DNA of 64,000 nucleotides from an uncultured Gammaproteobacteria bacterium (lineage in GTDB: Bacteria; Patescibacteriota; Microgenomatia; UBA1406; HO2-37-13b): NCBI GenBank assembly GCA_964422025.1, contig CAYQYZ010000002.1, positions 3,765-67,764 on the forward strand, written 5' to 3'. Shown here in pieces: positions 14,946 to 30,888 of the stretch (its first letter is position 1; each line of letters opens with the position of its first letter). A program made the translations under genes and the position numbers. The notes beneath the pieces are model-generated. The model saw nothing but the letters and a program-made list of their open reading frames with translations. It was not told the DNA's origin and ran no database searches.

Positions 14946-15497
14946 ATGCGTTTAGTTGAAAAGATTTTCTTTGTTTATTGCACAGCACTTGCACTTTTTT
15001 TCACAGTCGCAGCTACGGTCGTACTGTTTAAAGGTAACAATTATATATTAATACTTTTTATACTTCCAATTCCTGGCTACTTTGTATATTATATGGTTCT
15101 TGCACTTGCAAAACGAAGATCTTTACCTCAAGGCTCAACTTCACGAACGTTTATTTTAATGGTAATACTATGTCTATGTTTATTAACATCCTATGCGGTA
15201 AGTAAAATATACATTCAGCCAAATGCGAGCAAATCACAAGCTAGGTGGCAAAAATTAATACAGCCAAGCATAACTCCTAGTAAGAACTTAGGGTACATTG
15301 AAGTTGATCCTGAACAAGCATCAGATTCGTGGGTCAACCTGCGCAATAACCCTTCTACAGAAGCGGCAGTAATTGGAAAAGCAACAGTTGGAAAAAAATA
15401 CTCTATATTAGTGATACGATCAAATTGGATTAAAATCCAAATGGACGCATCAAGTTCGGCATGGATTAGTAAAAAATTTATAAAAAATACACAATGA
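14946..15497 (+). CDS. Small membrane protein (3 TM) with C-terminal bacterial SH3-like domain; paralog family member 2
   Basis: YILILFILPIPGYFVYYMV motif. The C-terminus GYIEVDPEQASDSWVNLRNNPSTEAAVIGKATVGKKYSILVIRSNWIKIQ resembles SH3b. Confidence 0.65.
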   Translation: MRLVEKIFFVYCTALALFFTVAATVVLFKGNNYILILFILPIPGYFVYYMVLALAKRRSLPQGSTSRTFILMVILCLCLLTSYAVSKIYIQPNASKSQARWQKLIQPSITPSKNLGYIEVDPEQASDSWVNLRNNPSTEAAVIGKATVGKKYSILVIRSNWIKIQMDASSSAWISKKFIKNTQ

Positions 15498-16147
15498 AAA
15501 AGATAATACTAATTTATAATGTGGCAATAATAACGGTCGTTACATTTATAGGATTCATAGAATCAACGTCATACGCACAACTTATAAGCAGTATTATTTT
15601 CTTTCCGCTCACGATTTATTTCTGGAGGATGATCGTTCCTTCAACTGCAAGCACACCAAATGTTGCTTTAAAAAAAGCAGCTGTACTTAAGAAAGCAAAA
15701 AAGATTGATGCTAAACCAGAAGATGCCCCTATTAAACTCACTGAGTTAGATGAGATAAAAGATACGGACGTAGATAATAACCGACGTATGTTTTTACGAC
15801 TTATTGGATCTGCGGGCGTGTCTGTTTTTATTCTTTCAATATTTACAGGCAAAGCTGAAGCGGCATTTTTTGGAAGTAACCCTGGTCCTGGTACTATTGG
15901 AGTCAAAGATTCATCGGGAACACTTATCGATCCATCCGAAAAACAACCAACCGATGGATACAACATTTCACAAGTAGATGATGAAATACCTTCATACTAT
16001 GGTTATGTAAATAAAACAGGCGCTTGGTACATTGTAAAAGAAGATGCTACGGGAGCATATAGATATGTGAAAGGAGCAAGTAGTTTTTCAACTAATTGGA
16101 CAAATCGCGCTAGCTTAACATATGACTATTTTGATTCTATTTTTTAA
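15494..16147 (+). CDS. Membrane protein: 2-TM paralog module + internal twin-arginine-like signal + globular C-terminal domain
   Basis: SSIIFFPLTIYFWRMIV motif, then DVDNNRRMFLRLIGSAGVSVFILSIFTGKAEA-AFF at residues 93-123 (nt ~15770-15862). ATGA overlap with the upstream gene. Confidence 0.65.
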   Translation: MKKIILIYNVAIITVVTFIGFIESTSYAQLISSIIFFPLTIYFWRMIVPSTASTPNVALKKAAVLKKAKKIDAKPEDAPIKLTELDEIKDTDVDNNRRMFLRLIGSAGVSVFILSIFTGKAEAAFFGSNPGPGTIGVKDSSGTLIDPSEKQPTDGYNISQVDDEIPSYYGYVNKTGAWYIVKEDATGAYRYVKGASSFSTNWTNRASLTYDYFDSIF

Positions 16148-16177: not shown

Positions 16178-16672
16178 ATGCCAACTAATCAGACTCTTTT
16201 CGTTACCGACATTAATGGCTCAGTTAGAGAATGTTTAAATATTTCACATGACACGACATACCCGGGATACGTGAAGGTGGAATTTTCTTCTAACAGAAAT
16301 GCTCCAGCGACATATTTTGAGTGGTACCCGGTAGATGATTTTATTCAAAATAATCCAACACTTGCCCATATTGTAAAGAAAGGCAAGCAACCAGCAGATG
16401 ATGATTTGGGTACAGTAACCCGCGCTACATTTACTACAATCACTGATAAGACCAAATCATGGCAACCAGGTATTTACAAAGGTATTCCCCTATGGATTTC
16501 TCGAGGAATTGGCGAAGGACAAGTTAGAAATGTAACAGATAATACGCATAATTCGCTCACTATCGATGAAAAATTTGACATTAAACCTGACAAAACATCG
16601 CAATATGTTCTATCGTATAATGTACATAATCCAACCGTTATGAATAATGCATTACCAGAAAATGAAAATTGA
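16178..16672 (+). CDS. Hypothetical cytoplasmic protein (164 aa)
   Basis: Intact ORF in the same-strand cluster. No signal peptide and no motif I recognise. Confidence 0.55.
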   Translation: MPTNQTLFVTDINGSVRECLNISHDTTYPGYVKVEFSSNRNAPATYFEWYPVDDFIQNNPTLAHIVKKGKQPADDDLGTVTRATFTTITDKTKSWQPGIYKGIPLWISRGIGEGQVRNVTDNTHNSLTIDEKFDIKPDKTSQYVLSYNVHNPTVMNNALPENEN

Positions 16673-17111
16673 ATATTTTTTAGGCGGAGCAGCTGGATTG
16701 GTTATTTTTGGATACGTTTTAGATATCCTTGCTGGACCACTTACGTTAGTTATTAATTCCCCGTTTGATTTTCTTACGCCGGTTATGCTTTCTACCTATC
16801 CATTCACGGCCGTATCGGTTGGCGCAAAGACAGTTGCCATTTTTGTTAGTACGGTAATGATTGTAACTACTGCTGGGGGCACTAAGTATAGTTTGCAATC
16901 AATAATTGTTTTTATTATGGCAGCACTTATGGAACTTTTTGCAATTCAACAAATAGCAACTCACGGCAATAACGTTTCTATGCAGTGGAATTTAGCATTT
17001 GCATTCTCTGGCGTATTACTTGTAGTTCCTGCAGTTATATATATGATTATGGCGATGGTAAAATCTGCACATAAAAATTTAGTGGCAGATCCGTACGAAT
17101 CTGACTCGTAG
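16662..17111 (+). CDS. Hypothetical polytopic membrane protein (~4 TM)
   Basis: MKIEYFLGGAAGLVIFGYVLDILAG... with four hydrophobic segments. The ATG at 16662 overlaps the upstream stop by 11 nt (track start 16647). Confidence 0.6.
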   Translation: MKIEYFLGGAAGLVIFGYVLDILAGPLTLVINSPFDFLTPVMLSTYPFTAVSVGAKTVAIFVSTVMIVTTAGGTKYSLQSIIVFIMAALMELFAIQQIATHGNNVSMQWNLAFAFSGVLLVVPAVIYMIMAMVKSAHKNLVADPYESDS

Positions 17112-17195: not shown

Positions 17196-20100
17196 ATGGC
17201 AACAATTACAATCGATCGAAGTATTAATGCAGATGATGCATTTGCAATGTCTGCGGGTATCACATTTGTTGCTCTCGCATCTGGATCTGCATCATACCAA
17301 ACTCAACCGACAGGTATTACCACGTGGACAACAGCGACTATTGTTCAATCCTCTGCTTGGCAATCTGTGTGTTATGGAAACAATATTGTTGTTGCAGTAA
17401 GCTCCACATCTGGAACAATCGCTGCTACTTCCCCGGCTGGTGTCACCGCGACATGGACATTACGGACAATGCCCGCAACAGCAAGCTGGTATGCAGTTGC
17501 ATATGGCTTATCGAAATTTGTCGCAGTGACAGGTGGTGCTTCAACTGTTGGAGCTTATTCGATTGACGGAGCAAAGTGGACACTCACGGGTGCACTGACA
17601 ACAAGCGGAGACTGGAGAGCCCTGACTTTTGGAAATGATCGCTTTGTTGCACTTTCGTACAACAGCACAAACACGAACTATTCAACAAATGGTACAACGT
17701 GGAGTGCAGGAGGTGCACTTCCTGCGACTCGTAACTGGACATCGGTGACCTATGGAGAGAGCACCTTTGTCGCAGTTGCCTCAGGAACTGATAAAGGAGC
17801 ATACTCGACAGACGGCGGAGTCAACTGGACAGAAATGACGATGCCATCATCTTCAAACTGGAATTCGGTCACGTATGGAAACGGAACGTTTGTCGCTGTA
17901 AGTAATACGTCGGGGACTATCGCAGCATATTCTGCTAATGGTATCGCTTGGACTTCTGCAACACTCCCAAACACACGAACCTGGGTTGCTGTCGCATTTG
18001 GGAATAACCTATTCACAGCAATTGCCAGCACTTCAACAACAGGAGCAGCATTTAGCTATGACGGTGTCAGTTGGAGTGGAGGCTCCATTGCAACTGTTTC
18101 GCAAGCAATTAGCTGTATGTGCCACACGCCCACCACCTGGAACTCAAACGACACACTTGTTATTACAAACAATTCAACTCTCACTGTCAATACAGACCAA
18201 AGTAAATTCTGGGGCTTCATAACCCTCACGAACGGAAAACTGCTCATTACAAATTCATCTACATCCACGGGTATCCGCTTTACCATGGGTCGCGTATCTG
18301 GGGCAGCTGCCGCGACTATCACTCCGGGATCAGGTATTGGAGATATTGAAATTACGGGAGACTGGATCGAGTTAGGTACCGGAGATGGAAGCTCTGGACA
18401 AACTATGACAGCCCCCTTCTCAGACTACATTGCGGCGCTCTGGGTCGAAACGGCATCTGGTTCGGGAATCTATGAACAGTGGCTCAATGCAACCGGCTCA
18501 TACAGCGACGCGTCCCCTATTCTCCGCGAAGGATTTGCAGCAATCGGGTCAGGTAGACGAGGTAAATTTTTCATCCAACAGGCAAATGCATCTCCGTATG
18601 GACCAACTATCCTCAACGGGACAGATGGAAGTATCGCACAAAAACTCATTACTGTTGACTCAACCACAGGACTCTATCCAGGCGCTTCGATTCTTGGCCC
18701 CGGAATCCCTGCAAACACGGTCGTGAATCGGGTCATTTCATCCACCCTCCTTGAAACAAATGCCATCTCCACGACTGAACTCTCCCCTGATTGGACCTCA
18801 GTCGCATATGGAAACAGTGTTTACGTGGCAGTGTCCGGTACCAGCTCAAACATAGCAGCAACATCTGCTGATGGGGTTACCTGGACCAAACGAACACTTC
18901 CATTTGTGGCTAACTGGAACTCAGTTTGTTATGGAGCAACGAGTGCCTTGTTTGTGGCAGTCTGTTCAGATGTGACGACAACTGGAGGAACTGCCATTGG
19001 GTCGAGATTTTGTGCAACAAGCCCTGATGGCATTACGTGGACAAGGCGTGCTATTCCACTCCCTTCTGTACTTGCTCAAAACTGGACATCAGTTGCTACC
19101 AACGGCACAAGCTTTGTCGCAGTTGGATCACTTGCAGACGGAACCGCCACGACAGTAGGTGCGTATTCTGCTGACGGGATCACCTGGTCAGCATCAACCA
19201 TGACCTCAGCAATATGGCGTTCAGTCACCTATGGTGCTGGTGCGGCCAACAGATATGTTGCCGTTTCAAGCACGACTATTTCTAACTGGGACGCGGACGG
19301 AACAGGCACATGGACAAACGGTGGTGCTATGACATCCGCAAACTATTTGAGCATCGCATGGAATGGAACGCGCTTTTATGCAGTTTCTGGTTCAAGCACG
19401 GTCAGTATGTGGTCCACAGATGCTACATCTTGGACGACGGGTGCTGTACTGAACAACTCGACGAGTCGCGGAGTCGCTTGGGACGGAACAAACTTCGTAA
19501 TCGTTTCAACAACAAACTCAGTTAACACATCCAGAACCCCTGCAGGTACGACGGGGACGCTCACCAACACAACCATGGCAGCAGCCAATGCAAACAACTG
19601 GACGGCGGTGTGCGCAAATGGAACAACGTTGGTAGCTGTATCATCCTCATCAAACTTGAGAAGTGCAGCGTTGACCTCCACAGACTCTGGAGCCAACTGG
19701 ACACTTCAAACGGGAACTCCTCTGGACGTATCACTTACCTGTTATAACCCGTATGTATCCCAACTTTCAAATACAGTCGAATTTGGCGACAACATCAATG
19801 GAAATAAGGTTCCCTCAGGGGCAAAAGTCAGATGTCCCAACATCATGTTTACATCTGCAGTGCCCGTCAACATCCAAACAGCATCCTCCATCGTCGGAGC
19901 AAACATGGTCATGACTGCAGGAGGATCACTTGTCGCCAATACCTGCTTGTTTGATGAGTCATACAACACCTTTAATCAGGCAGAAACACTTTCCCTCACA
20001 AATGTTGGTTTCTCTATCCCACCACTCATCAATGAATCGTATGGTGTCACGTTTAATAGTGTTGGCTTTGCCCTTGAGCCAGTCCGCCGGTATTACACCT

Positions 20101-23100
20101 ACTCAGCGACTATTGGTTCGGATGGCTGGTTTACTCGCGATAGACGTTACGGAGCTGGAACGACCACTTGGACATACTTGAATAATGCAAGCATCACTGA
20201 TTTTAATTACTGCGTTGGCTCGCCAAAAGCACTCCAAGTGGCAGTTTCTTCAGTAACCGCCCCTGCGCCAATGTTAACCATCTCGTACACACAAAACTCA
20301 ACGTGGAGCTATGTCCGCTTTTACGCTCTCAATTGTGTCGCTTCCTTTCAAGATGCATTTAACTTCCTCACGAACTTTAATGACAACACGATGGAGCACC
20401 TGGAAATGTACGGTGTTGCCCCCATGCTGTTTCAGACTTCAAGCGGAAATACGTTTACAGATGTACGCATTGCAGAAGATATGTTTAATGGATATAGAAG
20501 CTTTCCGACCACGGGTGCACGCATCGGCAATGATCCAACTGCGCAGGCTAAACTCGTCGATGACACCAAGTACTATCTGAAAGTCCGAACTTTTTATGAC
20601 TGGAACAATCTTTCAAATTATGCAGAAGGCCGAACAGTATCTGCAACGCCGTTTATTGGAAGTAAATTTTTCCCAGCAATATTTGGAGCAATAAATACCG
20701 CCACTCGTGCCGTCACTCTGACATGGATCAGGCGTGACCCTACATCCAGCGGTGCAGCGGGAACGACGACGTATCAAATATTTAGAAGCACTTCACCAGG
20801 CTTTACTCCCAGCTCTGCAAACAGAATATTTGACACTTTGACCGTCGCAACCGTTTCATACCTCAACGGTTTTGTCGCGACCATAACCGCCACAGCGTCG
20901 CCCGTAAGAACAATTACGTTTGCTGCAGCAGGTAGAACAATCACCCTTGGTGGTGCTGGTGCAGGAAGCTTTACAACCGCAGGATTTGTGGCTGGAGGAA
21001 ATGTGGTTGTAGCCGGAACTGTTTCTAACAATGGCACGTACACCATACTATCTTTTACAGCGACTGTCATCACCCTGACCACCAATCACACCAATTTAGT
21101 CAATGAAACTGCTCCAAACGGCGCAACTCTCGATGGTCAACCACCTGTAAACGGCACAAGTTACTACTATAAATTACGCAAGCACGATGCAATCCTCACG
21201 GGTATAACAAGTGCTTCAGGGACCGTCGCAACGACTACCCTCACAACAGCTGGAAACTTTAATACGGGTCTTGGGTCAGTCATCAACCTTCAAGGAATAA
21301 GCGGGCAAACCAAAATCAGGATTCCCGTCAGATCTACCACCAACTTTATGGCAGCGAACATTTTCCCTGGCCTCACCCTTGCAGGAACAGGTATCGGATC
21401 AGGGGCAAAGGTTGTGAGCATCGACACCGCATGGCAGATAACCGTCGATGTGACCAATTCATCGACGTTTGTTGGGACAACAGCCACTTTGGGGTTAGCC
21501 AACGGGACAGCGCCTGACAACATCTACGTTGTTGGGCCCGGAATCGCCCGCCCAACACGCGTGGCATCTATCACAAACTCGACCACTTTAGAGGTTGATA
21601 CCGCATTTATTGCAACCCTTTCTGCTCAGGCGATATTTTTTGAATATGGGACAGACAGCGCAGAAGTTGAAGTTACCCCAAGCGGTCCGACTACTGCCGC
21701 ATTTAACTTCCTTACTCAATCAAATGACTTCACCCATGCCAACTGGGTAAAAACAAATCTCACCGCGACAGCAAACCAAGTCTCGGGACCAAATGATATT
21801 GGCTTTGGTATCGCCGCAGCTCCAACCGCCGACCGACTCGTTTCGACCGGCCCAACAGCAAAGGCTGTACAGACTATCACCTCATACCTGGAAGTCGGCG
21901 CTATCTATACTTTCTCCGTATATATCAGATGTGACGCTCATCATTATTCCCAAACTGTCTCGGGAAAGATTTCTATCAATACAACAGTTGCCACGGATCA
22001 AGCATTTACAGCATCAGGAGTCTGGCAACGAATCTCAGCTACTTTTACCGCAACCGCCGTCACGCATGAATTTACCATTCAGATGACAACAGAGGGAAGT
22101 TACATCTATGCCTCAAGTGCTCTGGTTAATCAGGGCTCCTCCGCTCTTGTCCCCATCACCACCACCACCGTAAAAACAGCTGTGGCAAGCGGTGGACGCA
22201 CACTGACTTTTGCATCAGGTATCGACGGAGCCAATACCATTACCGCCTCATCAGGCGACTTCACAACAGCACCTGCTTTTGCAATTGGAGACAGTATTAT
22301 TGTGCAAGGAACATCTGATAATGACGGCACCTATGTATTATCTGCTGTAACAACTACTGTATTGACAGTGACTCCAGCACAACCCCTAGTTACGGGTGCG
22401 GGAGCACAATCATCTGGCTCCATCGTCGGGTCTGTTCTTGCCTCAGCAGCCCAAGAGCTTACCTCTGCACTTGCGTGGTGCCGAGCAACTGGAGGTAACA
22501 CGTCAAATCAGGGTATTGAAGTTGCTTTTGCTGCATTGCCAACTGGATCATTTTGGACTGAGCTGTATGTTGGGACGACAGCAGGCTTTACACCATCTTC
22601 TATTAATCGCGTTGGTTATACTCTTAACTTGCTTGGAGCTTCAACCTCCTTTTACCTCCTCAACTCCAATAACAACATTATCGACACGCTCGCTCAGGAA
22701 GGATACGGCGGATATTCTGGTACACGAGTATTCTTGCGAGGTGCTTCGAACAACAAATTCCTCGATTGGAACATTGACTTTAACTATGGTGCTGTACCTG
22801 CTATCGGAGATGTCGCAAATCTTTCCAACGACAATATCTTTGACGACTTCACCGTCAAAAACTTTAGAAACCTCAACACCTCACCGTTTATTTCTATTAA
22901 TGATAGTAGTGGACTTACCCTTCAAAACATCACCATTGAGCAAGCAAATGATATCCCCTATTCACTTCAATCATTAAACACCATTCTCAAGGGTGTGACG
23001 GGAGCCAATGCCGCTCAAGCAACGAACGCCACAACATATTTCTTCGGAGCAGGCGCATTTGCAACTGACGGACTTGCCATCGCCTATCAAGCCGTGTATG

Positions 23101-25967
23101 ACAACATCTTTTATGAACTGTACCATTCGCCCACAACCGGTGCACTTCACATGCTTTTCAACGCAAGCTCATCTGACACACCACCGTATACTATCGTCTC
23201 GGGCACACCAGCATTTGGAAACAACGGCCGTTTGTATTTGCGTACTGCTGGTGACTCGATCGAATACACCTGGCCATACCGTATTTATGGTATTTCCAGC
23301 TTCCGCGATATCATCCTCAAAAAAAATGGATTGGATCTGGGCTCAAGCTTGGACGGACTTGAATCACTTCTGGTTGAATTCAAAATCGATACGGGTACAG
23401 GAACAACGTACGGCGCATACCAAACTGCTACCCCAGCCAACCTTGCAGCCACATCTGTTTCCACCACCACCGGATTCCTTCTGAAAATCCGCATTACCGC
23501 CCAACCCGGAATGCTTTTTTCTACTCAAACAAATGCCTTTGTTGTCGGAGAAGAAATTGAAGGAACTACGTCTGGCGCAACAGCTACCGTTGATGATGTG
23601 CACAACCTAACAACAACAACGGGATGCGTCATATTGTCAAATATCACCGGCTCATTTATTCCCACAGAACTTGTTCGTCGTAATTCTGACAACCAAACGC
23701 GCGCAACGAACGTCGTAACCAACACGCAGTTCGCCCTGTTCCCATCCTTTAACAGCTATATTGACGGTTTGCAGATTTTTACCAATACCGTTGGCCCTGG
23801 TGATTATCCTGGGAGAATCGTGGACATTGTTCTGACCAACGTAACCACCGGAAGTACCTATTATGTATATAAAACGTCGGGAGGGTTACTTCTGGGCTCT
23901 GGGACAGCCAGTGGCGCGACAGTCACCATTCCAAATGTGGCGTATGTGACTGATTTTGGTATCACCATCCGTGTCCGCAAGTCCAGCGCCGTCACAAAGT
24001 ACCTTCCATTTGAAACGCAGGCTACAGTAACCGTTGCTGGTGCAAATGTATTTACATCGCAAATCGAAGATGCTATTGTAGCAGCCTCCTACGGTTCAAT
24101 TGGTAGTGACTTTACGATAAATTACACGCAAAAGCGTATCTATCACTCATCGGGAAGCTCTGTGTACTCCGTGAATGCTTTGTATTCATATCTACAAGAT
24201 GTGTTTGATGAAGAATCACAATTAGATGACACCGTACCAATGTCCGCACAAACGCCAACCGAATACACGCTCATCAACGGATGGTTCATGGATGATGAGT
24301 CATTTAAATACCTCACGGGTGGGGCTGTCCAAACATCGGGCTGGACGGGTGGTGTTATTCGCATGAAAGCATATGATGCGACCGGTGCTGGTACAGCGTT
24401 TGGATCGTCAGATATCGGTAAAGTGATTACGGAGACAGATAGCGGTGACACGGGAACCATCCTTGCCTATGATGAACGCACAGCCACTGAGATCGGCTAC
24501 GTGTGGATCCGCCCTGATACTCTGGCTGACACGTTTGCCGATGTAAACTCTGCCTACACCGTAGCGACAAGCTCCGCAGCCGGCGTCTTTACTGCAGCCA
24601 GCAGCACTGGTGAAACGATTTGGTCCAATATATTCTCGCTCGGTACGCTTGTAAGTGGTTCTACACTAGATGTCTGGCAAAATGATGTCCAAATCACTCC
24701 ATGGTGGACCAGCGGGCATATAGATATCTTGGTGAAGGTAAAAGAAATGGGAACAGAAACAGATAGCGGCAACATCACCGTTCTTGCCCGTAAATATTCT
24801 ACTCTCTATGACCATTTTGTCATCGATGCATCTACCGGTCGCAACCCGGTGCCTTTGGCGGCTTTTGCCGATGGAAATAATGAAACAGCATCGGGCACCG
24901 TAGCCGGATATTCAGATATAACATTTGATTTTGGGGCTTCAAGTCAAGATCTTGGGAATGGCAACGGAAGCCAACCGTATGATGTGGTCATTGACGGAGC
25001 CGGTCGACCACTCACTGAAATATATGAATACCTCAAATATGTAACGCGTTCAGGCTCTGGAACAACCCTTAACGGTGTTAACGGTGAGTTCTATATTGCG
25101 GTCGGCGACTACCGTTTTAACTACGATACAGAAGCATCTGGACCATTTGTGGAGGGTGAGCGAATTAACGGTAGCGGCGCCGTGTATGGCTATCTTGTGT
25201 CGCTTATTGACAGCGGAGCAACGGGCACCATGACGCTGCGCAATGTTCATGGAAGTTTTGCAGATGATATGGCAATCTCAGGAGTAACATCAGGTGCAAC
25301 AGCGGCCGTTAATGGAGCCCCGGAAGCAATTACTGCTTCTAAGCAAGCGCCTTTCGGAACCTTTGCCGGAGGGTCATTTTTCGGAGCCCGCGGCGTATTC
25401 CTAACTAATATGGATATTGCCGACGCCAATAACTATGAATTAATCGATGCAACGAACACCAGTCAAGTTCCACCTGCCACCGTAAACGTCCTGGTAGGAG
25501 GCTTAGTCTCCGGTGACCGAGTGAGCGTTTTCCGAACCACCGGAGCAAACGAAATCATCAATAAAACATATCTCGCTTCTCACGCCACTACCAACTCAGC
25601 AGCAACCACCGCATGGGAAGCAACCGGAGCGATCCCTGCCGACACACCAGCGGCGGGCTTTATTCGTCTTGTAAAGACCGCATCAAGTACTGAAGAGCGC
25701 TTAGAGTACACATCGTGGACGGGTGCTATTTTTACACTTGCAGGGGCGCATGCTGGCGGTTATGGCACCGGCGACACCGCGTATGTACCGTACATTGACG
25801 AACAAGCCAGCAGTACAAGTATTTCCAAGAGTGTTACCTATGTTTCTGATCGTACGGTGATGACCCGAGTTCGAAAAGTTGGCATTCAACCATTCACCAC
25901 CACCGGATCACTAACATCAACGGGTTACTCCGCAACAGCAGTAAGGACCGCAGATACCATCGCATAA
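17196..25967 (+). CDS. Giant (2923 aa) Thr/Ser/Gly/Ala-rich protein: two beta-propeller repeat arrays, beta-helix-like and FN3-like segments, tail-fibre-type jelly-roll module
   Basis: Single uninterrupted ORF. It has about 7+7 repeats of W-x-[SA]-V-x-[YF]-G-x-x-x-F-V-A-V with [ST]-x-[DN]-G-x-x-W (residues ~40-300 and ~530-830). The segment NFLTQSNDFTHANWVKTNLTATANQVSGPNDIG..ADRLVSTG..YTFSVYIRC.. recalls phage tail-fibre carbohydrate-binding modules. No N-terminal signal peptide is present. Confidence 0.9.
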   Translation: MATITIDRSINADDAFAMSAGITFVALASGSASYQTQPTGITTWTTATIVQSSAWQSVCYGNNIVVAVSSTSGTIAATSPAGVTATWTLRTMPATASWYAVAYGLSKFVAVTGGASTVGAYSIDGAKWTLTGALTTSGDWRALTFGNDRFVALSYNSTNTNYSTNGTTWSAGGALPATRNWTSVTYGESTFVAVASGTDKGAYSTDGGVNWTEMTMPSSSNWNSVTYGNGTFVAVSNTSGTIAAYSANGIAWTSATLPNTRTWVAVAFGNNLFTAIASTSTTGAAFSYDGVSWSGGSIATVSQAISCMCHTPTTWNSNDTLVITNNSTLTVNTDQSKFWGFITLTNGKLLITNSSTSTGIRFTMGRVSGAAAATITPGSGIGDIEITGDWIELGTGDGSSGQTMTAPFSDYIAALWVETASGSGIYEQWLNATGSYSDASPILREGFAAIGSGRRGKFFIQQANASPYGPTILNGTDGSIAQKLITVDSTTGLYPGASILGPGIPANTVVNRVISSTLLETNAISTTELSPDWTSVAYGNSVYVAVSGTSSNIAATSADGVTWTKRTLPFVANWNSVCYGATSALFVAVCSDVTTTGGTAIGSRFCATSPDGITWTRRAIPLPSVLAQNWTSVATNGTSFVAVGSLADGTATTVGAYSADGITWSASTMTSAIWRSVTYGAGAANRYVAVSSTTISNWDADGTGTWTNGGAMTSANYLSIAWNGTRFYAVSGSSTVSMWSTDATSWTTGAVLNNSTSRGVAWDGTNFVIVSTTNSVNTSRTPAGTTGTLTNTTMAAANANNWTAVCANGTTLVAVSSSSNLRSAALTSTDSGANWTLQTGTPLDVSLTCYNPYVSQLSNTVEFGDNINGNKVPSGAKVRCPNIMFTSAVPVNIQTASSIVGANMVMTAGGSLVANTCLFDESYNTFNQAETLSLTNVGFSIPPLINESYGVTFNSVGFALEPVRRYYTYSATIGSDGWFTRDRRYGAGTTTWTYLNNASITDFNYCVGSPKALQVAVSSVTAPAPMLTISYTQNSTWSYVRFYALNCVASFQDAFNFLTNFNDNTMEHLEMYGVAPMLFQTSSGNTFTDVRIAEDMFNGYRSFPTTGARIGNDPTAQAKLVDDTKYYLKVRTFYDWNNLSNYAEGRTVSATPFIGSKFFPAIFGAINTATRAVTLTWIRRDPTSSGAAGTTTYQIFRSTSPGFTPSSANRIFDTLTVATVSYLNGFVATITATASPVRTITFAAAGRTITLGGAGAGSFTTAGFVAGGNVVVAGTVSNNGTYTILSFTATVITLTTNHTNLVNETAPNGATLDGQPPVNGTSYYYKLRKHDAILTGITSASGTVATTTLTTAGNFNTGLGSVINLQGISGQTKIRIPVRSTTNFMAANIFPGLTLAGTGIGSGAKVVSIDTAWQITVDVTNSSTFVGTTATLGLANGTAPDNIYVVGPGIARPTRVASITNSTTLEVDTAFIATLSAQAIFFEYGTDSAEVEVTPSGPTTAAFNFLTQSNDFTHANWVKTNLTATANQVSGPNDIGFGIAAAPTADRLVSTGPTAKAVQTITSYLEVGAIYTFSVYIRCDAHHYSQTVSGKISINTTVATDQAFTASGVWQRISATFTATAVTHEFTIQMTTEGSYIYASSALVNQGSSALVPITTTTVKTAVASGGRTLTFASGIDGANTITASSGDFTTAPAFAIGDSIIVQGTSDNDGTYVLSAVTTTVLTVTPAQPLVTGAGAQSSGSIVGSVLASAAQELTSALAWCRATGGNTSNQGIEVAFAALPTGSFWTELYVGTTAGFTPSSINRVGYTLNLLGASTSFYLLNSNNNIIDTLAQEGYGGYSGTRVFLRGASNNKFLDWNIDFNYGAVPAIGDVANLSNDNIFDDFTVKNFRNLNTSPFISINDSSGLTLQNITIEQANDIPYSLQSLNTILKGVTGANAAQATNATTYFFGAGAFATDGLAIAYQAVYDNIFYELYHSPTTGALHMLFNASSSDTPPYTIVSGTPAFGNNGRLYLRTAGDSIEYTWPYRIYGISSFRDIILKKNGLDLGSSLDGLESLLVEFKIDTGTGTTYGAYQTATPANLAATSVSTTTGFLLKIRITAQPGMLFSTQTNAFVVGEEIEGTTSGATATVDDVHNLTTTTGCVILSNITGSFIPTELVRRNSDNQTRATNVVTNTQFALFPSFNSYIDGLQIFTNTVGPGDYPGRIVDIVLTNVTTGSTYYVYKTSGGLLLGSGTASGATVTIPNVAYVTDFGITIRVRKSSAVTKYLPFETQATVTVAGANVFTSQIEDAIVAASYGSIGSDFTINYTQKRIYHSSGSSVYSVNALYSYLQDVFDEESQLDDTVPMSAQTPTEYTLINGWFMDDESFKYLTGGAVQTSGWTGGVIRMKAYDATGAGTAFGSSDIGKVITETDSGDTGTILAYDERTATEIGYVWIRPDTLADTFADVNSAYTVATSSAAGVFTAASSTGETIWSNIFSLGTLVSGSTLDVWQNDVQITPWWTSGHIDILVKVKEMGTETDSGNITVLARKYSTLYDHFVIDASTGRNPVPLAAFADGNNETASGTVAGYSDITFDFGASSQDLGNGNGSQPYDVVIDGAGRPLTEIYEYLKYVTRSGSGTTLNGVNGEFYIAVGDYRFNYDTEASGPFVEGERINGSGAVYGYLVSLIDSGATGTMTLRNVHGSFADDMAISGVTSGATAAVNGAPEAITASKQAPFGTFAGGSFFGARGVFLTNMDIADANNYELIDATNTSQVPPATVNVLVGGLVSGDRVSVFRTTGANEIINKTYLASHATTNSAATTAWEATGAIPADTPAAGFIRLVKTASSTEERLEYTSWTGAIFTLAGAHAGGYGTGDTAYVPYIDEQASSTSISKSVTYVSDRTVMTRVRKVGIQPFTTTGSLTSTGYSATAVRTADTIA

Positions 25968-26948: not shown

Positions 26949-28922
26949 ATGGCAACCATTAGTTCAGATTTTACAATTGATTACGTTAATAAACGTGTCT
27001 ACCATTCAGCAAATAATAATGTATACACCGTAAACGCACTCTATTCCTATCTACAAGATACCTTTGATGAACTTGCCCAGATGGATGACACCATCCCGAT
27101 GTCGGCACAGACACCAACAGATTACACCCTCATTAACGGATGGTTCATGGACGAGGAATCATTTAAATATCTCAAAGGAGGAGCCATTCAAACAAGCGGA
27201 TACAACGGAGAAATTCAAATTCTTCTGCTTGATGGGACATATGTAAGCGCTGTATCTGGAGACATCGGTAAAACAGTACTTGATGATGCTGTCGCTTCCG
27301 GCCAGCTCCTTGCATACGACAACACTCTGCAAAAATGGTGGATCCGGCATACAGGAACGATAGCAAATAACTCTGTCATGACAATCTCCACCGGTACCGG
27401 TGCTGGAGATGCGCTTGGAGCATCTGTTACCGGAGAAAACCTATACCCAAACGTCTATACTCTTGGATCTATCGAAGAAGATGACAGTCAACAGATTTAC
27501 ATTATTCAAAATGGATCACGACTGACCGAGTGGTGGCCAGAATCAGGATCCGGAACGCAGCAGATTGATGTACTTATCAAAGTCAAAGAGGCAGGTACCG
27601 AAATAAATAGCGGTGCTATCACTGTATTTCTTAGACATTACCCAAGCGGCGGAAATGCCGACTTGTACGACCACTTCGGAATCGATCTTACCGCTGGAGG
27701 CCGAAATGCGGTTCCTCTTGCTACCTCTCCTGACTTAAACAACTTGACTGCCACAGCAACCGTATCAGGATACAGTGACGTAACAATCGCTTTCGTAAAT
27801 GGAACCCTCACCTATACGGGCATGTCAGCTGCTTTTACGAACCTTGAGACTGTCACACAAGCCTCAAGCGGTGCAACTGGTATCTATCTTTACTCCACCA
27901 CATCAAGCGGAGCAGGAACCATGACGCTCGGAAATGTTGTTGGGACTTTTGACGGGACAAACGTTATTACTGGCGGAACCTCAGGATCAACCGCAACATC
28001 CTCTTCAACACTCACCAATGCCTACACGATGGATAAAAACTTCGACCAAGGATCTTCATATCCGTATTCTGTTATTGTTGGATGTGCAACCCGACCTTTG
28101 ACAGAAGTATATGAATATCTCAAGTACATCACCCGTGTTGGATCAAGCTACAACACCTATCCAACAGCAAAGGCCCAAGGTGGAGCAATAACATTTGCAG
28201 CGCTCACAGGACAACAATACATTCGAGCCCATGAAGATAATCAGACATCACCTGATAATACGTTTTCACCAGCCAAGGCTTCCCCATTCGGTACCTTTGC
28301 AGGAGGAAAGCTCTTCGGTGCGCAAGGTGTGTGGGTTGAAAACATGGATGCAGCAGACATTCAAAACTTCCAGCTTATTGACTCAGACGGCACAACACGA
28401 ACTCCACCGAACAAACAAAATGTCACTATTACGAATCTTCTTTCCGGAGACCGCGTCTCAGTTTTCCGAACATCTTCTGGGACAACAATTGATAAGGCAA
28501 TGTATTCCCTTGCTGCAAGTAATGATTCCGGCGATAGTACAATCATTGTTACGGGAAGCATATCTGTTGATACACCTTCTACCGGCGCGATTAGACTTGT
28601 AGATACAAGCGATCTAACAGCAACGCGAGAAACACGATACACGTACACATCATGGTCTGGATCGACATTTTCAGGCGTATCTCCTGTTCTTGATCGCACA
28701 TACACAGCATCTGATGATAAAGCATACGTACCGTTTATCGATGAACAGGCATCGAGCACATCAATTTCTGTACAGGTCATTTATTCTACAGATCGATCAA
28801 TTCTCCTCCGTGTCCGACGAAAAGCATCTGTTGCCATTCTGCCATTTGAAACAACGGGAACATTCGGATCAACTGGATTTTCAACATCTGCAATTAGAAC
28901 ACCTGATACAATCGTTACTTAA
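26949..28922 (+). CDS. 657-aa paralog of the C-terminal ~620 aa of the giant protein
   Basis: SDFTIDYVNKRVYHS..VYTVNALYSYLQDTFDELAQMDDTIPMSAQTPTDYTLINGWFMDEESFKYLKGGAIQTSG compares with giant residues ~2306 on (SDFTINYTQKRIYHS..VYSVNALYSYLQDVFDEESQLDDTVPMSAQTPTEYTLINGWFMDDESFKYLTGGAVQTSG). The C-termini also match (AYVPFIDEQASSTSIS.. vs AYVPYIDEQASSTSIS..). Confidence 0.9.
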   Translation: MATISSDFTIDYVNKRVYHSANNNVYTVNALYSYLQDTFDELAQMDDTIPMSAQTPTDYTLINGWFMDEESFKYLKGGAIQTSGYNGEIQILLLDGTYVSAVSGDIGKTVLDDAVASGQLLAYDNTLQKWWIRHTGTIANNSVMTISTGTGAGDALGASVTGENLYPNVYTLGSIEEDDSQQIYIIQNGSRLTEWWPESGSGTQQIDVLIKVKEAGTEINSGAITVFLRHYPSGGNADLYDHFGIDLTAGGRNAVPLATSPDLNNLTATATVSGYSDVTIAFVNGTLTYTGMSAAFTNLETVTQASSGATGIYLYSTTSSGAGTMTLGNVVGTFDGTNVITGGTSGSTATSSSTLTNAYTMDKNFDQGSSYPYSVIVGCATRPLTEVYEYLKYITRVGSSYNTYPTAKAQGGAITFAALTGQQYIRAHEDNQTSPDNTFSPAKASPFGTFAGGKLFGAQGVWVENMDAADIQNFQLIDSDGTTRTPPNKQNVTITNLLSGDRVSVFRTSSGTTIDKAMYSLAASNDSGDSTIIVTGSISVDTPSTGAIRLVDTSDLTATRETRYTYTSWSGSTFSGVSPVLDRTYTASDDKAYVPFIDEQASSTSISVQVIYSTDRSILLRVRRKASVAILPFETTGTFGSTGFSTSAIRTPDTIVT

Positions 28923-28924
28923 TT

Positions 28925-29482
28925 ATGACATCAGATACGTTTACTGGCTCCAAACCGAAAGCTGTCCGTGGACCAAATGGACGGTTCGTAAGTAATAAGG
29001 TACCAGAGCCTCCTTTGGAAGAAGCACCACAAGACTTGCATGACCAAGCAGCTACTATTGATCCACCCGTAGAAGTCATATCTGAAACACAGCATATTTT
29101 CTTCAATGATCTTTCATATTATGGCGAATATATTAGACGCGTATATAAAAATAGTGAGTGGTTTTTTGTCATTGAAGACCTTTTTCCCTTAGCGAATATT
29201 ACAGAACCGAATAAAGTTATCGACGCTTTTGAACATTCTCCCTATTACACTGATTCCATTGGTACAGATCTTTTCGAAATCGAGATTCCTAAAAATAATT
29301 TAGGACAGAGCCACTTAACCATTGGTAACAAAAAAACCATTCTAGCTTTTATTCAACTGTTACGATCAATGAGCCACTTCTTCCCGGGCAGATTTCCTGA
29401 ATGGATAGAAGAAACCACCCACGTAGATTTTGCGGAAGCTGACGCCAAACGAAAAAGCATTCTCAATCAAAATCTTAATTAA
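28925..29482 (+). CDS. Hypothetical protein with Bro-N/KilA-N-like segment
   Basis: FFNDLSYYGEYIRRVYKNSEWFFVIEDLFPLANITEPNKVIDAF fits the Bro-N pattern (vRvv..dge.wFva.Dva.aLg...) by eye only. Confidence 0.5.
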   Translation: MTSDTFTGSKPKAVRGPNGRFVSNKVPEPPLEEAPQDLHDQAATIDPPVEVISETQHIFFNDLSYYGEYIRRVYKNSEWFFVIEDLFPLANITEPNKVIDAFEHSPYYTDSIGTDLFEIEIPKNNLGQSHLTIGNKKTILAFIQLLRSMSHFFPGRFPEWIEETTHVDFAEADAKRKSILNQNLN

Positions 29483-29519: not shown

Positions 29520-30830
29520 ATGGCATTAACATTTGATTTCACTGATAGTATTATTGAAGTTCCTGCTCCTCAGACAACGCTTGTCATGCAGGACTTGATT
29601 AATGAAATTCGTGACGTAGAAGATGAGCTAACTCCTGGTATGGTTAATAATAAAATCGCCGATGCTTCGGGCAAGGAAGATTTAGGAGGCGGCGTATCTA
29701 CAGCTATAACTGTTCGTTTGCTTGATAGCTGGCGGGTGCGATTCGAAGCTCGAGGCGGGCCCACCACTGAGCAAATGGTTATTACCGGAGGCAATTTAGT
29801 AGGAGGTTTACTAGGAAGTCCAATAGCGCCTTCTGCGTATACTCAAGTATTGAACTTAAGCTCGGCATCGGGAACGATTGCTACACCTGCTACGGCAAGT
29901 GATGCAACAAATCTTAAATATCTTCTTGCATCAGCATATAGCGGCCAAAAAACAATTGGAGACATTTTCTATTGGGATCCTGTTTCAGGAAGTGATTCAA
30001 ATAATGGACTTACACCTGCTACGGCAGTGCTCACCTTTGCGTCGGCTCATACATTAGCTACATCGGGAATGCATGATGTGATTTTCTGTCTTTCTTCCGA
30101 TCCATCGGGTATTACTACGGTTACTGAAACACTTGCCATTACAAAGCACACGCTTAAAGTACGAGGTCCCGGTTATACATTCCAACTTATTCCATCAGCC
30201 GATACTGCTGATACCATATCAGTCACTGGTAATAACTCAGAAGTCTCGGGGCTATATATTTCAACCGCAGGAACCGGAACACGCAATGGTATTAGCGTGG
30301 CAGCGAATAATGTTGTCGTAAAAGATTGTTGGGTCTCGCAAACACGCGGACATGGTATAAGCCTGAGCAATGCAAATTTGTGTAGCTTAGGTATTAATGT
30401 CGTTGATTCAAGTGGACTATCGGGAACTGGAAATGCAATTAACTTAGGTGACAATACAACCCAAACAGTTATTGCTAAATGTATTATTTCAGACAGCATT
30501 GACGGAATAGCTTTGTCGGGGACTGGCTTATCAGATAATATTGTCGAAGATAGTTTGGTATATAAGAACTCTGGATATGGATTGCATGTTGGTTCTGGAG
30601 TCTTGAGAACCGTTGCTCGATCAGGTAATACGTTTATTAATAACACCACAGCGAATACGCTTGATTCTGGTACCGACACGTACATTGAAAGTGCGGCCGG
30701 AGGCGCATCTGCATCGGAAATTGCCGATGCTGTATGGGATGAGGTCATTTCTGGCCATGTAACATCGGGCACATCAGGTCGATTCCTTAAAGACGCCAAG
30801 CTTAAAGCAACAATCGCTTCACTTAAATAG
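29520..30830 (+). CDS. Right-handed parallel beta-helix protein, tailspike/tail-fibre-like
   Basis: Repeated PbH1-like turns (NGISVAANNVVVKDCWVSQTRGHGISLSNAN..NAINLGDNTTQTVIAKCIISDSIDGIALSG..NIVEDSLVYKNSGYGLHVGSG). The C-terminal SEIADAVWDEVISGHVTSGTSGRFLKD motif is common in phage tail fibres. No signal peptide is present. Confidence 0.75.
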   Translation: MALTFDFTDSIIEVPAPQTTLVMQDLINEIRDVEDELTPGMVNNKIADASGKEDLGGGVSTAITVRLLDSWRVRFEARGGPTTEQMVITGGNLVGGLLGSPIAPSAYTQVLNLSSASGTIATPATASDATNLKYLLASAYSGQKTIGDIFYWDPVSGSDSNNGLTPATAVLTFASAHTLATSGMHDVIFCLSSDPSGITTVTETLAITKHTLKVRGPGYTFQLIPSADTADTISVTGNNSEVSGLYISTAGTGTRNGISVAANNVVVKDCWVSQTRGHGISLSNANLCSLGINVVDSSGLSGTGNAINLGDNTTQTVIAKCIISDSIDGIALSGTGLSDNIVEDSLVYKNSGYGLHVGSGVLRTVARSGNTFINNTTANTLDSGTDTYIESAAGGASASEIADAVWDEVISGHVTSGTSGRFLKDAKLKATIASLK

Positions 30831-30888
30831 AGCTTGATACCCTATTGAAGTGCTTGCATTTTTATTCGGTGTTTGATACTCTCAAGTG

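What the first reader, a model, noticed from the sequence alone, without database searches (positions are those of the whole stretch)
17196..25967. 2923-aa signal-peptide-less giant protein with two 7-bladed-propeller-like arrays and tail-fibre modules
Seen in sequence:
- One uninterrupted 8.8-kb ORF has its own promoter abutting the ATG.
- There are two arrays of about seven repeats with the pattern W-x-S-V-x-Y-G-x-x-x-F-V-A-V ... S-x-D-G-x-x-W. They cover roughly nt 17316-18100 and 18786-19690 and are separated by a beta-helix-like stretch (TLVITNNSTLTVNTDQSKFWGFITLTNGKLLITNSS).
- Further on come FN3-like segments (TLTWIRRDP..YQIFRSTSPGFTPSS).
- There is also a jelly-roll module (FTHANWVKTNLTATANQVSGPNDIG..ADRLVS..YTFSVYIRC) of the kind I associate with phage tail-fibre carbohydrate-binding domains.
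- The N-terminus (MATITIDRSINADDAF) has no Sec or Tat signal, although the composition and domains look extracellular.

Inference: this is a phage-tail-fibre-derived adhesin or host-attachment protein of an episymbiont. Its export route is unclear.
Basis: partly seen in the sequence, partly recalled or inferred. Interest (0 to 1): 0.65.

Follow-up and report, generated by a model that had tools for sequence, protein, structure and literature searches.

The report
Giant phage-appendage-like protein in Microgenomates
This 2923-residue protein of an ultrasmall (CPR, Microgenomates) bacterium is real, carries two seven-bladed propellers on a backbone shared with giant phage virion-appendage proteins, and has been swapped recently between very distant CPR genomes, so it is probably a borrowed phage part used to bind other cells.

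Summary
The ORF 17196-25967 is intact. It is colinear with more than 30 independently assembled orthologues and has no DNA repeats. AlphaFold2 plus Foldseek confirm two seven-bladed, Asp-box-like propellers. No signal peptide exists in any family member.

The new result is homology to phage proteins.
- The C-terminal 627 aa ("CM") belongs to an unnamed family of about 1500 clusters, related to the cyanophage Syn5 structural protein gp53 (hhalign 98%).
- CM is free-standing next door (26949-28922), in sister genomes, and in 133 IMG/VR viral-contig matches.
- A bona fide phage contig with terminase and portal encodes a colinear 2286-aa homologue of the backbone, without propellers. It is followed by a CM gene, then by the N-terminal domain of the window's beta-helix protein (29520-30830).

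The roughly ten-gene cluster sits beside tatA/tatC in five of five CPR genomes. No terminase, portal or capsid match was found among the window ORFs scanned.

Residues 1-2294 are 80-91% identical to genomes whose L11, NusG and TatC are 38-42% identical. The gene is therefore a mosaic, horizontally exchanged cassette.

Best reading: a domesticated phage appendage module used as a glycan- or cell-binding fibre. Export route and function are untested.

The parts
17196..25967 (+). Giant ORF, 2923 aa, no signal peptide
   Evidence: Identical to P0128. More than 30 colinear orthologues at 59-84% identity.
17196..18095 (+). P1: N-terminal seven-bladed Asp-box-like beta-propeller (aa 1-300)
   Evidence: Motifs. 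AF2 pLDDT 80-96 with 28 strands. Foldseek tandem-propeller hits at probability 1.0. Weak Pfam EPTP hit.
18096..18785 (+). M2: all-beta module of short strands (aa 301-530), compatible with a beta-helix; shared with phage loci L028 and L034
18786..19730 (+). P2: second seven-bladed propeller (aa 531-845), an insertion absent from most distant homologues
   Evidence: Distant homologues join q1-532 directly to q848. AF2 and Foldseek. Diverges independently of the flanking modules: 66% against 80-91%.
19731..21125 (+). M4: conserved beta-rich backbone module (aa 846-1310), ending in an FN3-like stretch that is not verified
   Evidence: Matches phage L028 aa 352-719 at 29% identity, E 4e-32. FN3 is not supported.
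21126..22430 (+). M5: variable middle region (aa 1311-1745), containing the CBM_4_9-like jelly-roll at about aa 1503-1640 (nt 21702-22115)
   Evidence: Pfam CBM_4_9 in orthologues P0021, P0026, P0027, P0030 and P0036.
22431..24083 (+). M6: the backbone module best conserved with phage (aa 1746-2296). Its last ~85 aa form a small domain shared with the C-terminus of Syn5 gp54 and with the CM C-terminus.
   Evidence: 42% identity over 345 aa to phage L028. hhalign against gp54 gives 94.7%, E 5.6e-8. hhalign against the CM end gives 70%. 13 viral loci carry it. The AF2 model here is poor.
24084..25964 (+). CM: C-terminal module (aa 2297-2923), fused here and free-standing elsewhere; a Syn5 gp53-like family
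   Evidence: hhalign against gp53 gives 98.2%, E 3.6e-14. AF2 pLDDT 80-96. 1496 clusters in 1.84 billion representatives.
26949..28922 (+). Free-standing CM paralogue (657 aa)
   Evidence: 60% identity to the Shapirobacteria counterpart.
28925..29482 (+). 185-aa conserved cluster protein of unknown function, no signal peptide
   Evidence: Weak counterpart in L082.
29520..30830 (+). Right-handed beta-helix protein (436 aa). Its N-terminal ~120-190 aa are shared with the gene that follows CM in about 50 viral loci, a tailspike-like architecture.
   Evidence: Pfam Beta_helix. tblastn. Conserved in L001, L082 and L084.
15494..16147 (+). 217-aa membrane protein with a conserved internal twin-arginine signal ([ND]RRxF[LI][KR]L...AxA) and a ~95-aa exported domain
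   Evidence: Conserved in L001, L082 and L084.
16178..16672 (+). 164-aa soluble conserved cluster protein
   Evidence: 40% identity in L082 and L084.
16647..17111 (+). 154-aa protein with four TM segments, immediately upstream of the giant gene
   Evidence: Conserved in L001, L082 and L084. No family match.
14946..15497 (+). 183-aa protein with three TM segments and a C-terminal SH3_3 domain
   Evidence: SH3_3 proteins occupy the same position in L001.
30886..32046 (+). TatA-like ORF (30886-31149, judged by sequence pattern only) and TatC (31294-32046)
   Evidence: TatC by Pfam. TatA and TatC lie next to the cluster in L001, L082, L084 and L085.
32639..34903 (-). 754-aa protein, counterpart of the large SH3_3 proteins that flank tatC in the other genomes
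   Evidence: No Pfam hit in the window copy itself.

Best explanation
The ORF encodes a modular fibre-like protein built on the backbone of a giant phage virion-appendage protein.

Shown:
- Modules M2, M4 and M6 are colinear with a 2286-aa protein of a phage contig that carries terminase and portal genes.
- The C-terminal 627 aa belong to the family of Syn5 structural protein gp53.
- The last ~85 aa of M6 resemble the C-terminus of Syn5 gp54.
- The CPR lineage has added a seven-bladed Asp-box-like propeller at the N-terminus. This sub-lineage has also inserted a second propeller.
- The middle of the protein carries a CBM_4_9-like jelly-roll.
- The gene sits in a cluster of about ten genes that is vertically conserved across Microgenomates. 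The cluster holds a free-standing gp53-like paralogue, a tailspike-like beta-helix protein with a phage-type N-terminal domain, three small membrane proteins, one small Tat-signal protein and tatA/tatC.
- Residues 1-2294 behave as a mosaic cassette that has recently moved between very distant CPR genomes.

Inferred:
- The giant protein, the gp53-like protein and the beta-helix protein co-assemble. The fusion of giant and CM in some lineages, and their separation in others, argues for physical contact.
- They form an appendage exposed outside the cell.
- The conserved C-terminal parts hold the assembly together.
- The exchangeable propellers and CBM bind surface glycans or proteins of a partner or host cell.
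- The beta-helix partner may cut polysaccharide.

Export is unexplained. Candidates are the conserved membrane proteins and Tat system of the cluster, or release by lysis.
For: Integrity and family.

Propellers.

CBM.

Phage homology:
- 133 CM relatives in IMG/VR.
- L004 carries a collagen-like tail fibre (1e-51), tailspike or virion proteins and an HNH gene around its CM gene.
- L028 carries TerL (7e-23), portal and tailspike genes, plus the colinear giant, then CM, then the N-domain gene.
- Syn5 gene 53 by tblastn, E 7e-5; hhalign 98.2%.
- Syn5 gp54 C-terminus, 94.7%.
- BFVD fold hits are large phage structural proteins, DUF4815 proteins and baseplate proteins.

Fusion versus split.

Synteny with tat in five of five genomes.

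Not a prophage: the ORFs scanned across the 64-kb window are housekeeping or uncharacterised genes. None matched a terminase, portal or major-capsid family.

Horizontal exchange:
- Against L085, the giant is 80-88% identical, while L11 is 40%, NusG 39% and TatC 38%, all on the same contigs.
- Against L001, the giant is 80-91% identical, while neighbours are 40-55%.
- Against L084, P1/M2/P2 are 80% identical but M4-M6 only 54-63%.
- GC3 is 0.43 in the giant against 0.24-0.36 in neighbours.

Composition typical of extracellular beta-rich proteins: T+S+A+G 46%, K 1.6%, E 2.3%, 15 Cys.
Against: - None of the giant protein, the CM paralogue, the 185-aa protein or the beta-helix protein has a signal peptide or TM segment. 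Extracellular location is therefore unproven.
- Phage appendage proteins fold in the cytoplasm and leave by lysis, so a cellular copy need not be exported.
- Nothing shows binding, glycan specificity or catalysis.
- No PHROG or Pfam family supports a tail-fibre assignment.
- PDB fold hits for CM are only generic beta-sandwich arrays.
- The M6 model is unreliable.
- From memory of Raytcheva 2014, antibodies to the Syn5 horn proteins did not block infection. The closest characterised relatives are thus not proven receptor binders.
- Some IMG/VR contigs of 330-494 kb that carry M6 may be CPR DNA rather than phage.
Confidence: 0.5

Rival explanations
1. The cluster is the fibre module of a defective prophage or of a phage-derived particle (tailocin- or GTA-like). 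The other parts of that particle would lie elsewhere in the genome. The proteins are made in the cytoplasm and released when a fraction of cells lyse.
For: All four phage-like proteins lack signals. The three-gene order is the same as in phage L028. Small multi-TM proteins and SH3_3 proteins lie upstream, with a weak PHROG amidase-type SH3 hit, which could be lysis-cassette relics. A second phage-like patch lies at 47899-51646.
Against: No terminase, portal, capsid, tube or sheath family matched among the ORFs scanned across the 64 kb, or in the 20-28-kb loci of four other genomes. The cluster sits at the same chromosomal place, next to tat, in genomes whose neighbouring genes are only 40-55% identical. 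That argues for long-term retention rather than a decaying prophage.
Confidence: 0.2
2. It is mainly an enzyme complex. GH74-like propellers, a CBM and the neighbouring beta-helix protein would degrade a polysaccharide such as host capsule, EPS or cell wall, with binding secondary.
For: The best-identity fold matches for the propellers are GH74 xyloglucanases. CBM_4_9 is present in orthologues. The partner carries Beta_helix and NosD domains. Giant genes of predatory bacteria have been linked to cell-wall degradation (bioRxiv 10.1101/2023.11.21.568195, title and abstract).
Against: No glycoside-hydrolase or lyase family reaches threshold. Identity to GH74 is 13% and catalytic residues were not examined. 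LRP and WD40 propellers score as well as GH74. The propellers are dispensable, since they are absent from the phage homologue.
Confidence: 0.12
3. It is a structural envelope or S-layer-type protein of the CPR cell, unrelated to host contact.
For: S-layer proteins (B. anthracis Sap, SbsC, SlaA/B) appear among the weak fold matches of CM. The composition is typical of surface arrays. CM paralogues are numerous in CPR.
Against: Those matches have probability below 0.6 and TM-scores below 0.3. There is no signal peptide or anchoring domain. Recent lateral exchange and module mosaicism are unusual for a lattice protein.
Confidence: 0.08
4. The phage copies derive from CPR genes rather than the reverse. 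Phages of CPR bacteria, or of their hosts, captured a cellular surface fibre.
For: CM and the giant backbone are most diverse and most numerous in Microgenomates genomes. The direction of transfer was not tested.
Against: The family reaches phages of unrelated hosts (Syn5 of Synechococcus) and contigs binned with many phyla and archaea. Absence of signal peptides is the viral condition, not the cellular one.
Confidence: 0.1

Closest known systems
Cyanophage Syn5 structural proteins gp53 and gp54. From memory, these are the two proteins of the 'horn' at the capsid vertex opposite the tail (Raytcheva et al. 2014, J Virol 88:2047). The citation is listed in PMC4102127; the paper itself is not held.
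   Same: The CM module is homologous to gp53 over about 290 columns (hhalign 98.2%; tblastn E 7e-5). The last ~85 aa of M6 match the C-terminus of gp54 (94.7%). In both systems the two genes are adjacent, and both products lack signals.
   Different: Syn5 gp53 is 446 aa and gp54 is 622 aa, and both are virion parts of a T7-like phage. Here the homologous parts are embedded in a 2923-aa chromosomal protein with two propellers and a CBM, in a genome region with no phage head or tail genes. The horn's function is unknown.
Phage tail-fibre and tailspike (receptor-binding protein) modules
   Same: Modular, mosaic and laterally exchanged. A conserved N-terminal domain with a variable body is seen in the beta-helix partner. 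The phage homologues lie among tail-fibre and tailspike genes. Beta-helix and carbohydrate-binding modules are present.
   Different: No sequence family of tail fibres matches. Trimeric fibre structure is not shown. The variable end here is the N-terminus, whereas in most fibres it is the C-terminus.
Domesticated phage structural modules in bacteria (tailocins, contractile injection systems, gene transfer agents)
   Same: Phage virion genes are kept in a chromosome at a fixed locus, apparently under selection.
   Different: Those systems keep tube, sheath, baseplate or capsid genes and are released by lysis or dedicated export. Only the appendage genes are present here.
GH74-type double seven-bladed Asp-box propellers (PDB 1sqj, 6p2l); Pfam EPTP and DUF6242 repeats of giant secreted proteins
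   Same: Two seven-bladed propellers of ~41-45-aa blades with an S-x-D-G-x-x-W loop motif. The same repeat type occurs in giant FN3-rich proteins of other phyla, and EPTP and DUF6242 were confirmed on one of these, P0081.
   Different: The two propellers are separated by 230 aa and do not form a single cleft in sequence terms. No hydrolase signature was found. There is no signal peptide or sorting domain.

Membership tests
Syn5 gp53-like virion protein family (CM module; no Pfam or PHROG entry) | Significant sequence or profile homology to Syn5 gp53 | tested here: met
   tblastn E 7e-5 over aa 167-358. hhalign probability 98.2%, E 3.6e-14, 292 columns.
Syn5 gp53-like virion protein family (CM module; no Pfam or PHROG entry) | Encoded in phage genomes among virion genes | tested here: met
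   133 relatives in IMG/VR. L004 and L028 contexts carry tail fibre, tailspike, TerL and portal genes. The window copy itself is not in a phage context.
Syn5 gp53-like virion protein family (CM module; no Pfam or PHROG entry) | Physical part of a virion appendage | not testable with these tools
   Needs immuno-EM or proteomics.
Phage tail fibre / tailspike (receptor-binding protein) | Match to a tail-fibre or tailspike sequence family | tested here: not met
   PHROGs gave no tail family for the giant, the CM paralogue or the beta-helix protein, or for phage CM. Pfam gave none for the phage homologues.
Phage tail fibre / tailspike (receptor-binding protein) | Conserved N-terminal attachment domain with variable distal part | tested here: met
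   This holds for the beta-helix neighbour: aa 1-120/190 are shared with the gene after CM in about 50 viral loci, and the rest differs. It was not shown for the giant protein.
Phage tail fibre / tailspike (receptor-binding protein) | Trimeric fibre or beta-helix fold | tested here: inconclusive
   M2 and M4 are modelled as all-beta with good confidence, but they could not be searched apart from the propellers. The M6 model is poor. Oligomer state was not modelled.
Prophage or phage-derived particle | Terminase, portal, capsid, tube or sheath genes in the neighbourhood | tested here: not met
   Pfam and PHROG scans of the window ORFs tested found none. The precomputed Pfam annotations of loci L001, L082, L084 and L085 list none either.
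Asp-box/BNR-type seven-bladed beta-propeller | Seven four-stranded blades | tested here: met
   Seven repeat units per array. 28 strands per array in the AF2 model. Foldseek probability 1.0 to propeller proteins.
Asp-box/BNR-type seven-bladed beta-propeller | S-x-D-x-G-x-T-W Asp-box motif | tested here: inconclusive
   A shifted variant S-x-[DN]-G-x-x-W is present in 9 blades. No Pfam BNR hit; only a weak EPTP hit.
GH74 or sialidase-type glycoside hydrolase | Catalytic residues or family-level sequence match | not tested
   Only fold-level similarity at 10-13% identity. Catalytic positions were not examined.
CBM_4_9 carbohydrate-binding module | Pfam PF02018 above the gathering score | tested here: inconclusive
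   Met in orthologue P0021 (28.2 bits against 25.9) and listed for four more orthologues. Not reached by the window protein itself.
Fibronectin type III domain | Pfam fn3 match or profile similarity to a known FN3 | tested here: not met
   No Pfam hit at E<=1. hhalign of the family profile against an FN3 of P0081 gave 10%. The resemblance rests on sequence pattern only.
Sec- or Tat-exported protein | N-terminal signal peptide or twin-arginine motif | tested here: not met
   None in the giant protein or its three phage-like partners. A conserved RRxFL[KR] signal exists only in ORF 15494-16147.

The most novel reading that the evidence does not exclude
Microgenomates bacteria have domesticated a complete phage appendage module: giant fibre, gp53-like protein and tailspike-like protein. 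They export it folded through the Tat system that is always encoded next to it, piggy-backing on the small conserved Tat-signal protein of the cluster. The result is a host-attachment organelle. Its binding head (propellers and CBM, aa 1-2294) is replaced by lateral transfer between distantly related episymbionts that share hosts.
Probability: 0.1. Interest if true: 0.85.

Novelty: new variant of a known kind. Interest (0 to 1): 0.65.

Why it matters
How CPR episymbionts recognise and hold their hosts is largely unknown beyond type IV pili.

This locus gives a concrete candidate that is widespread in Microgenomates: a phage-derived appendage with swappable binding modules. It also links a large unnamed protein family (about 1500 clusters) to the functionally enigmatic 'horn' proteins of cyanophage Syn5.

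The giant gene is 80-90% identical between genomes whose ribosomal protein L11 is 40% identical. This shows recent gene flow between distant CPR lineages, possibly through phages. It also offers a marker for shared ecology or shared hosts.

Finally, the locus poses a clear export puzzle: 300-kDa signal-less proteins sit next to a conserved Tat system.

Tried and rejected
- PDB sequence and profile searches with the whole protein, the CM profile, the family profile, the beta-helix protein and the 164-aa protein found nothing significant.
- Pfam on the giant gave only a weak EPTP hit. PHROGs gave only a chance-level 'head protein' hit. Pfam on the phage homologues and on the 4263-aa relative P0038 found nothing.
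- Foldseek of the C-terminal model against PDB gave only generic Ig, FN3 and S-layer arrays.
- The AF2 model of M6 was too poor to use.
- Syn5 gp54 does not resemble the beta-helix partner or CM as a whole. Syn5 tail fibre gp46 and internal virion protein gp45 do not match the giant family.
- FN3 was tested by hhalign and not supported.
- Mis-assembly was considered and rejected. There are no DNA repeats, and colinear orthologues come from NCBI, ENA, JGI and Logan assemblies.
- Prophage was considered and ranked low, because no hallmark genes were found.
- The first viral scan, with the mixed alignment A1, failed for lack of conserved stretches.
- Exact look-ups of the window protein and of P0128 found no record.
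- Raytcheva 2014 and Pope 2007 are not held. The horn assignment of gp53 and gp54 therefore rests on the cited title and on my memory.
- Literature searches found no description of this family in CPR.
Full report
OBSERVATION

The ORF 17196..25967 (+) is uninterrupted and encodes 2923 aa. It is identical to a protein on a 139.6-kb NCBI contig. Its 90%-identity cluster contains fragments named 'Microgenomates group bacterium'. The window is cellular DNA, with F1 ATP synthase subunits, NDK, prepilin peptidase, LeuRS, TatC, a class I W/Y-type tRNA synthetase, SHMT and ribosomal protein L1. No tRNA gene or Rfam match was found.

The protein is very rich in T, A, S and G (46%) and poor in K and E. 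It has no signal peptide or TM segment. The N-terminus MATIT..N.DD is conserved down to relatives of 34% identity. The gene start is therefore real.

The repeat motif W-x-x-V-x-[YF]-G ... There is no tandem or long direct repeat at the DNA level. More than 30 orthologues from independent assemblies are colinear over the whole length. Mis-assembly is therefore unlikely.

The claimed promoter is a single 9/12 consensus match in a region where such matches are common. It is not evidence.

ANATOMY

BLAST against 120 homologues divides the protein into seven modules.

| Module | Residues | Note |
|---|---|---|
| P1 | 1-300 | N-terminal propeller |
| M2 | 300-530 | short-strand all-beta module |
| P2 | 530-845 | second propeller |
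| M4 | 845-1310 | conserved backbone |
| M5 | 1310-1745 | variable middle, with CBM-like region |
| M6 | 1745-2296 | backbone best conserved with phage |
| CM | 2297-2923 | C-terminal module |

P2 is an insertion: most distant relatives join residue 532 directly to residue 848.

An AlphaFold2 model of aa 1-1200 is confident (pLDDT 83.7, pTM 0.75) and all-beta. I count 28 strands in each array, which gives two seven-bladed propellers. Foldseek matches tandem-propeller proteins at probability 1.0. The highest identities (13%) are to the GH74 double seven-bladed propellers.

One of them was verified above the cut-off.

FN3 could not be confirmed. The fold of M2, proposed to be beta-helix-like, could not be examined separately.

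THE C-TERMINAL MODULE IS A SEPARATE PROTEIN ELSEWHERE

Orthologues of about 2280 aa end exactly at residue 2294. In one such genome (L001) a free-standing 964-aa CM protein lies 441 nt downstream, after a 99-aa gene. The window also has a free-standing paralogue at 26949-28922.

CM defines a large unnamed family:
- 1087 hits in the word-indexed search, all 'hypothetical' with no Pfam domain;
- 1496 clusters at 50% identity among 1.84 billion representatives.

The family occurs in Shapiro-, Roizman-, Gottesman-, Davies-, Woese-, Collier-, Beckwith- and Amesbacteria and in WWE3. More distant copies (35-45% identity) lie in contigs binned with many other phyla and with archaea.

The CM half of the second AF2 model is confident (pLDDT 80-96) and consists of beta-sandwich domains. 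PDB fold matches are generic.

PHAGE CONNECTION

A scan of IMG/VR found 133 CM relatives in viral contigs. The window's beta-helix protein (29520-30830; Pfam Beta_helix) has a match in about 50 of the 79 loci. Only its N-terminal 120-190 residues match, in the gene directly after CM.

Two loci were checked for phage hallmark genes.
- L004 (85-kb contig) has a collagen-like tail fibre (1e-51), a tailspike or virion structural protein and an HNH endonuclease around its CM gene.
- L028 (95-kb contig) has terminase large subunit (7e-23), portal and tailspike genes within 10 kb.

L028 encodes a 2286-aa protein colinear with M2, M4 and M6 of the giant protein. Identity reaches 42% over 345 aa at the C-terminus, and there are no propellers. 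This protein is followed by CM (791 aa) and a 184-aa homologue of the beta-helix protein's N-terminus. The M6 C-terminal part occurs in 13 viral loci.

In isolate phages the only relative is cyanophage Syn5 gene 53, annotated 'structural protein' (tblastn E 7e-5). A profile comparison gives 98.2% probability over 292 columns. The last ~85 residues of M6 match the C-terminus of the adjacent Syn5 gp54 (94.7%). They also resemble the C-terminus of CM itself (70%).

According to Raytcheva et al. 2014, gp53 and gp54 are the proteins of the Syn5 'horn'. The reference is listed in PMC4102127, but the paper is not held, so this content is from memory. BFVD fold matches are large phage structural proteins, DUF4815 proteins and baseplate proteins, including a 622-aa Syn5 structural protein whose length matches gp54.

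CHROMOSOMAL CONTEXT

None of the window ORFs scanned matched a terminase, portal or major-capsid family. The precomputed Pfam annotations of four other CPR loci list none either.

The cluster itself is conserved in Microgenomates genomes that are only 40-55% identical in neighbouring genes. Its usual order is:
1. SH3_3 membrane protein
2. a membrane protein with an internal twin-arginine signal
3. a 164-aa soluble protein
4. a four-TM 154-aa protein
5. the giant protein
6. the CM protein
7. the beta-helix protein
8. tatA copies and tatC
9. a large SH3_3 protein

Most or all of this order holds in L001, L082 (a 949-kb Shapirobacteria contig) and L084. L085 retains the giant gene and tatA/tatC but not the beta-helix protein or several of the small upstream genes. 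Tat genes adjoin the cluster in five of five genomes.

The motif [ND]RRxF[LI][KR]L, followed by a hydrophobic stretch and A-x-A, is conserved in ORF 15494-16147 and its orthologues. That small protein is a plausible Tat substrate and may by itself explain the linkage. The giant protein and its partners have no such motif.

LATERAL EXCHANGE

All comparisons below are between genes on the same contigs.

| Compared with | Giant modules | Other genes |
|---|---|---|
| L085 | 80-88% (P2 66%) | L11 40%, NusG 39%, TatC 38% |
| L001 | 80-91% (P2 66%) | neighbours 40-55%; CM 36% |
| L084 | P1, M2, P2 80%; M4-M6 54-63% | neighbours 36-55% (TatC 55%); CM 35% |
| L082 | 29-49% | fused CM 56%; free CM 60% |

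GC3 of the giant gene is 0.43, against 0.24-0.36 for adjacent genes.

Residues 1-2294 are therefore a mosaic cassette that has moved recently between distant CPR lineages, with breakpoints at module borders. CM and the rest of the cluster have not moved with it.

INTERPRETATION

Identity is well supported. The ORF is a chromosomal relative of a giant phage virion-appendage protein, fused to a gp53-like module and decorated with propellers and a CBM.

Function is inferred. The alternation of fused and split forms suggests that M6 and CM contact each other. The conserved C-terminal parts and the phage-type N-domain of the beta-helix protein suggest a three-protein assembly. The exchangeable N-terminal modules suggest ligand binding that is under selection to change. 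An exposed, host- or glycan-binding fibre fits these facts and the episymbiotic lifestyle of cultivated Patescibacteria (PMC12206443, abstract).

The weak point is export, because no signal exists. The options are the conserved membrane proteins, Tat hitchhiking, or lysis.

Rival readings are listed separately with their tests: a phage-derived particle released by lysis, a polysaccharide-degrading complex, an envelope lattice, and capture of a cellular gene by phages.

NOVELTY

No Pfam, PHROG or PDB family covers M2, M4, M6 or CM. No paper found describes this family in CPR. It is a new variant of a known theme, the reuse of phage receptor-binding or appendage proteins. It has three unusual features: giant size with propellers, conserved linkage to Tat, and very recent transfer between distant CPR lineages.

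Noticed in passing
window 15494-16147 (+): A 217-aa protein has two N-terminal TM segments, then an internal, conserved twin-arginine signal (NRRMFLRL...AEA/AFFGS) and a ~95-aa C-terminal domain. This layout resembles dual Sec/Tat-inserted membrane proteins. It may be the real substrate of the adjacent Tat system.
   Followed up: partly
window 47899-51646 (+), with 51647-53683: A 148-aa fragment with a phage-integrase N-terminal SAM-like domain overlaps the start of a 1104-aa protein. That protein carries a Peptidase_G2 intramolecular-chaperone cleavage domain, the type found at the C-terminal end of phage tailspikes and fibres. A 678-aa TPR protein follows. This may be a second phage-derived patch.
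   Followed up: partly
window 43880-44770 (-): A 296-aa ORF matches PHROG families annotated 'tail protein' (phrog_7043, E 3e-27) and an unknown-function family (phrog_14556, E 2e-31). It was not scanned with Pfam.
   Followed up: no
window 25985-26593 (+): A 202-aa SAM-methyltransferase or spermidine-synthase-like gene sits between the giant gene and the CM paralogue. It has a low GC of 0.32 and no counterpart at that position in L001, L082 or L084, so it is probably an insertion.
   Followed up: partly
L001 7624-8220; L084 2728-3360: Y1-type (IS200-like) transposase genes lie just upstream of the giant gene in two other genomes. This fits a recombination-prone locus.
   Followed up: no
P0001, P0126, P0127 (other assemblies of nearly the same protein): One ENA assembly calls only residues 404-2923 (98-99% identical). 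An NCBI MAG holds the gene as partial pieces at contig ends. The gene therefore breaks or is mis-called in some assemblies, although the window copy is intact.
   Followed up: partly
L164, L170, L172, L174 (IMG/VR contigs of 330-494 kb): Several 'viral' contigs carrying the M6 domain are as long as a large fraction of a CPR genome. They may be CPR DNA or huge phages, so counts of 'viral' homologues should be read with that in mind.
   Followed up: no
L122, L129, L134, L135, L160, L161 (genome contigs): CM homologues of 33-46% identity lie in contigs binned as archaea (Woesearchaeota, Archaeoglobales, Altiarchaeales, Nitrososphaerota). They could reflect archaeal viruses, mis-binning or cross-domain spread.
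   Followed up: no
Genome contigs record titles: Many MAG records that carry close relatives of this CPR cluster are titled 'uncultured Gammaproteobacteria', 'Pseudomonadales' or 'Saccharibacteria'. These labels conflict with gene content and look unreliable.
   Followed up: no
window 35252-36205 (+): A 317-aa ORF with no Pfam domain matches the unknown-function phage family phrog_5978 (E 4e-11).
   Followed up: no
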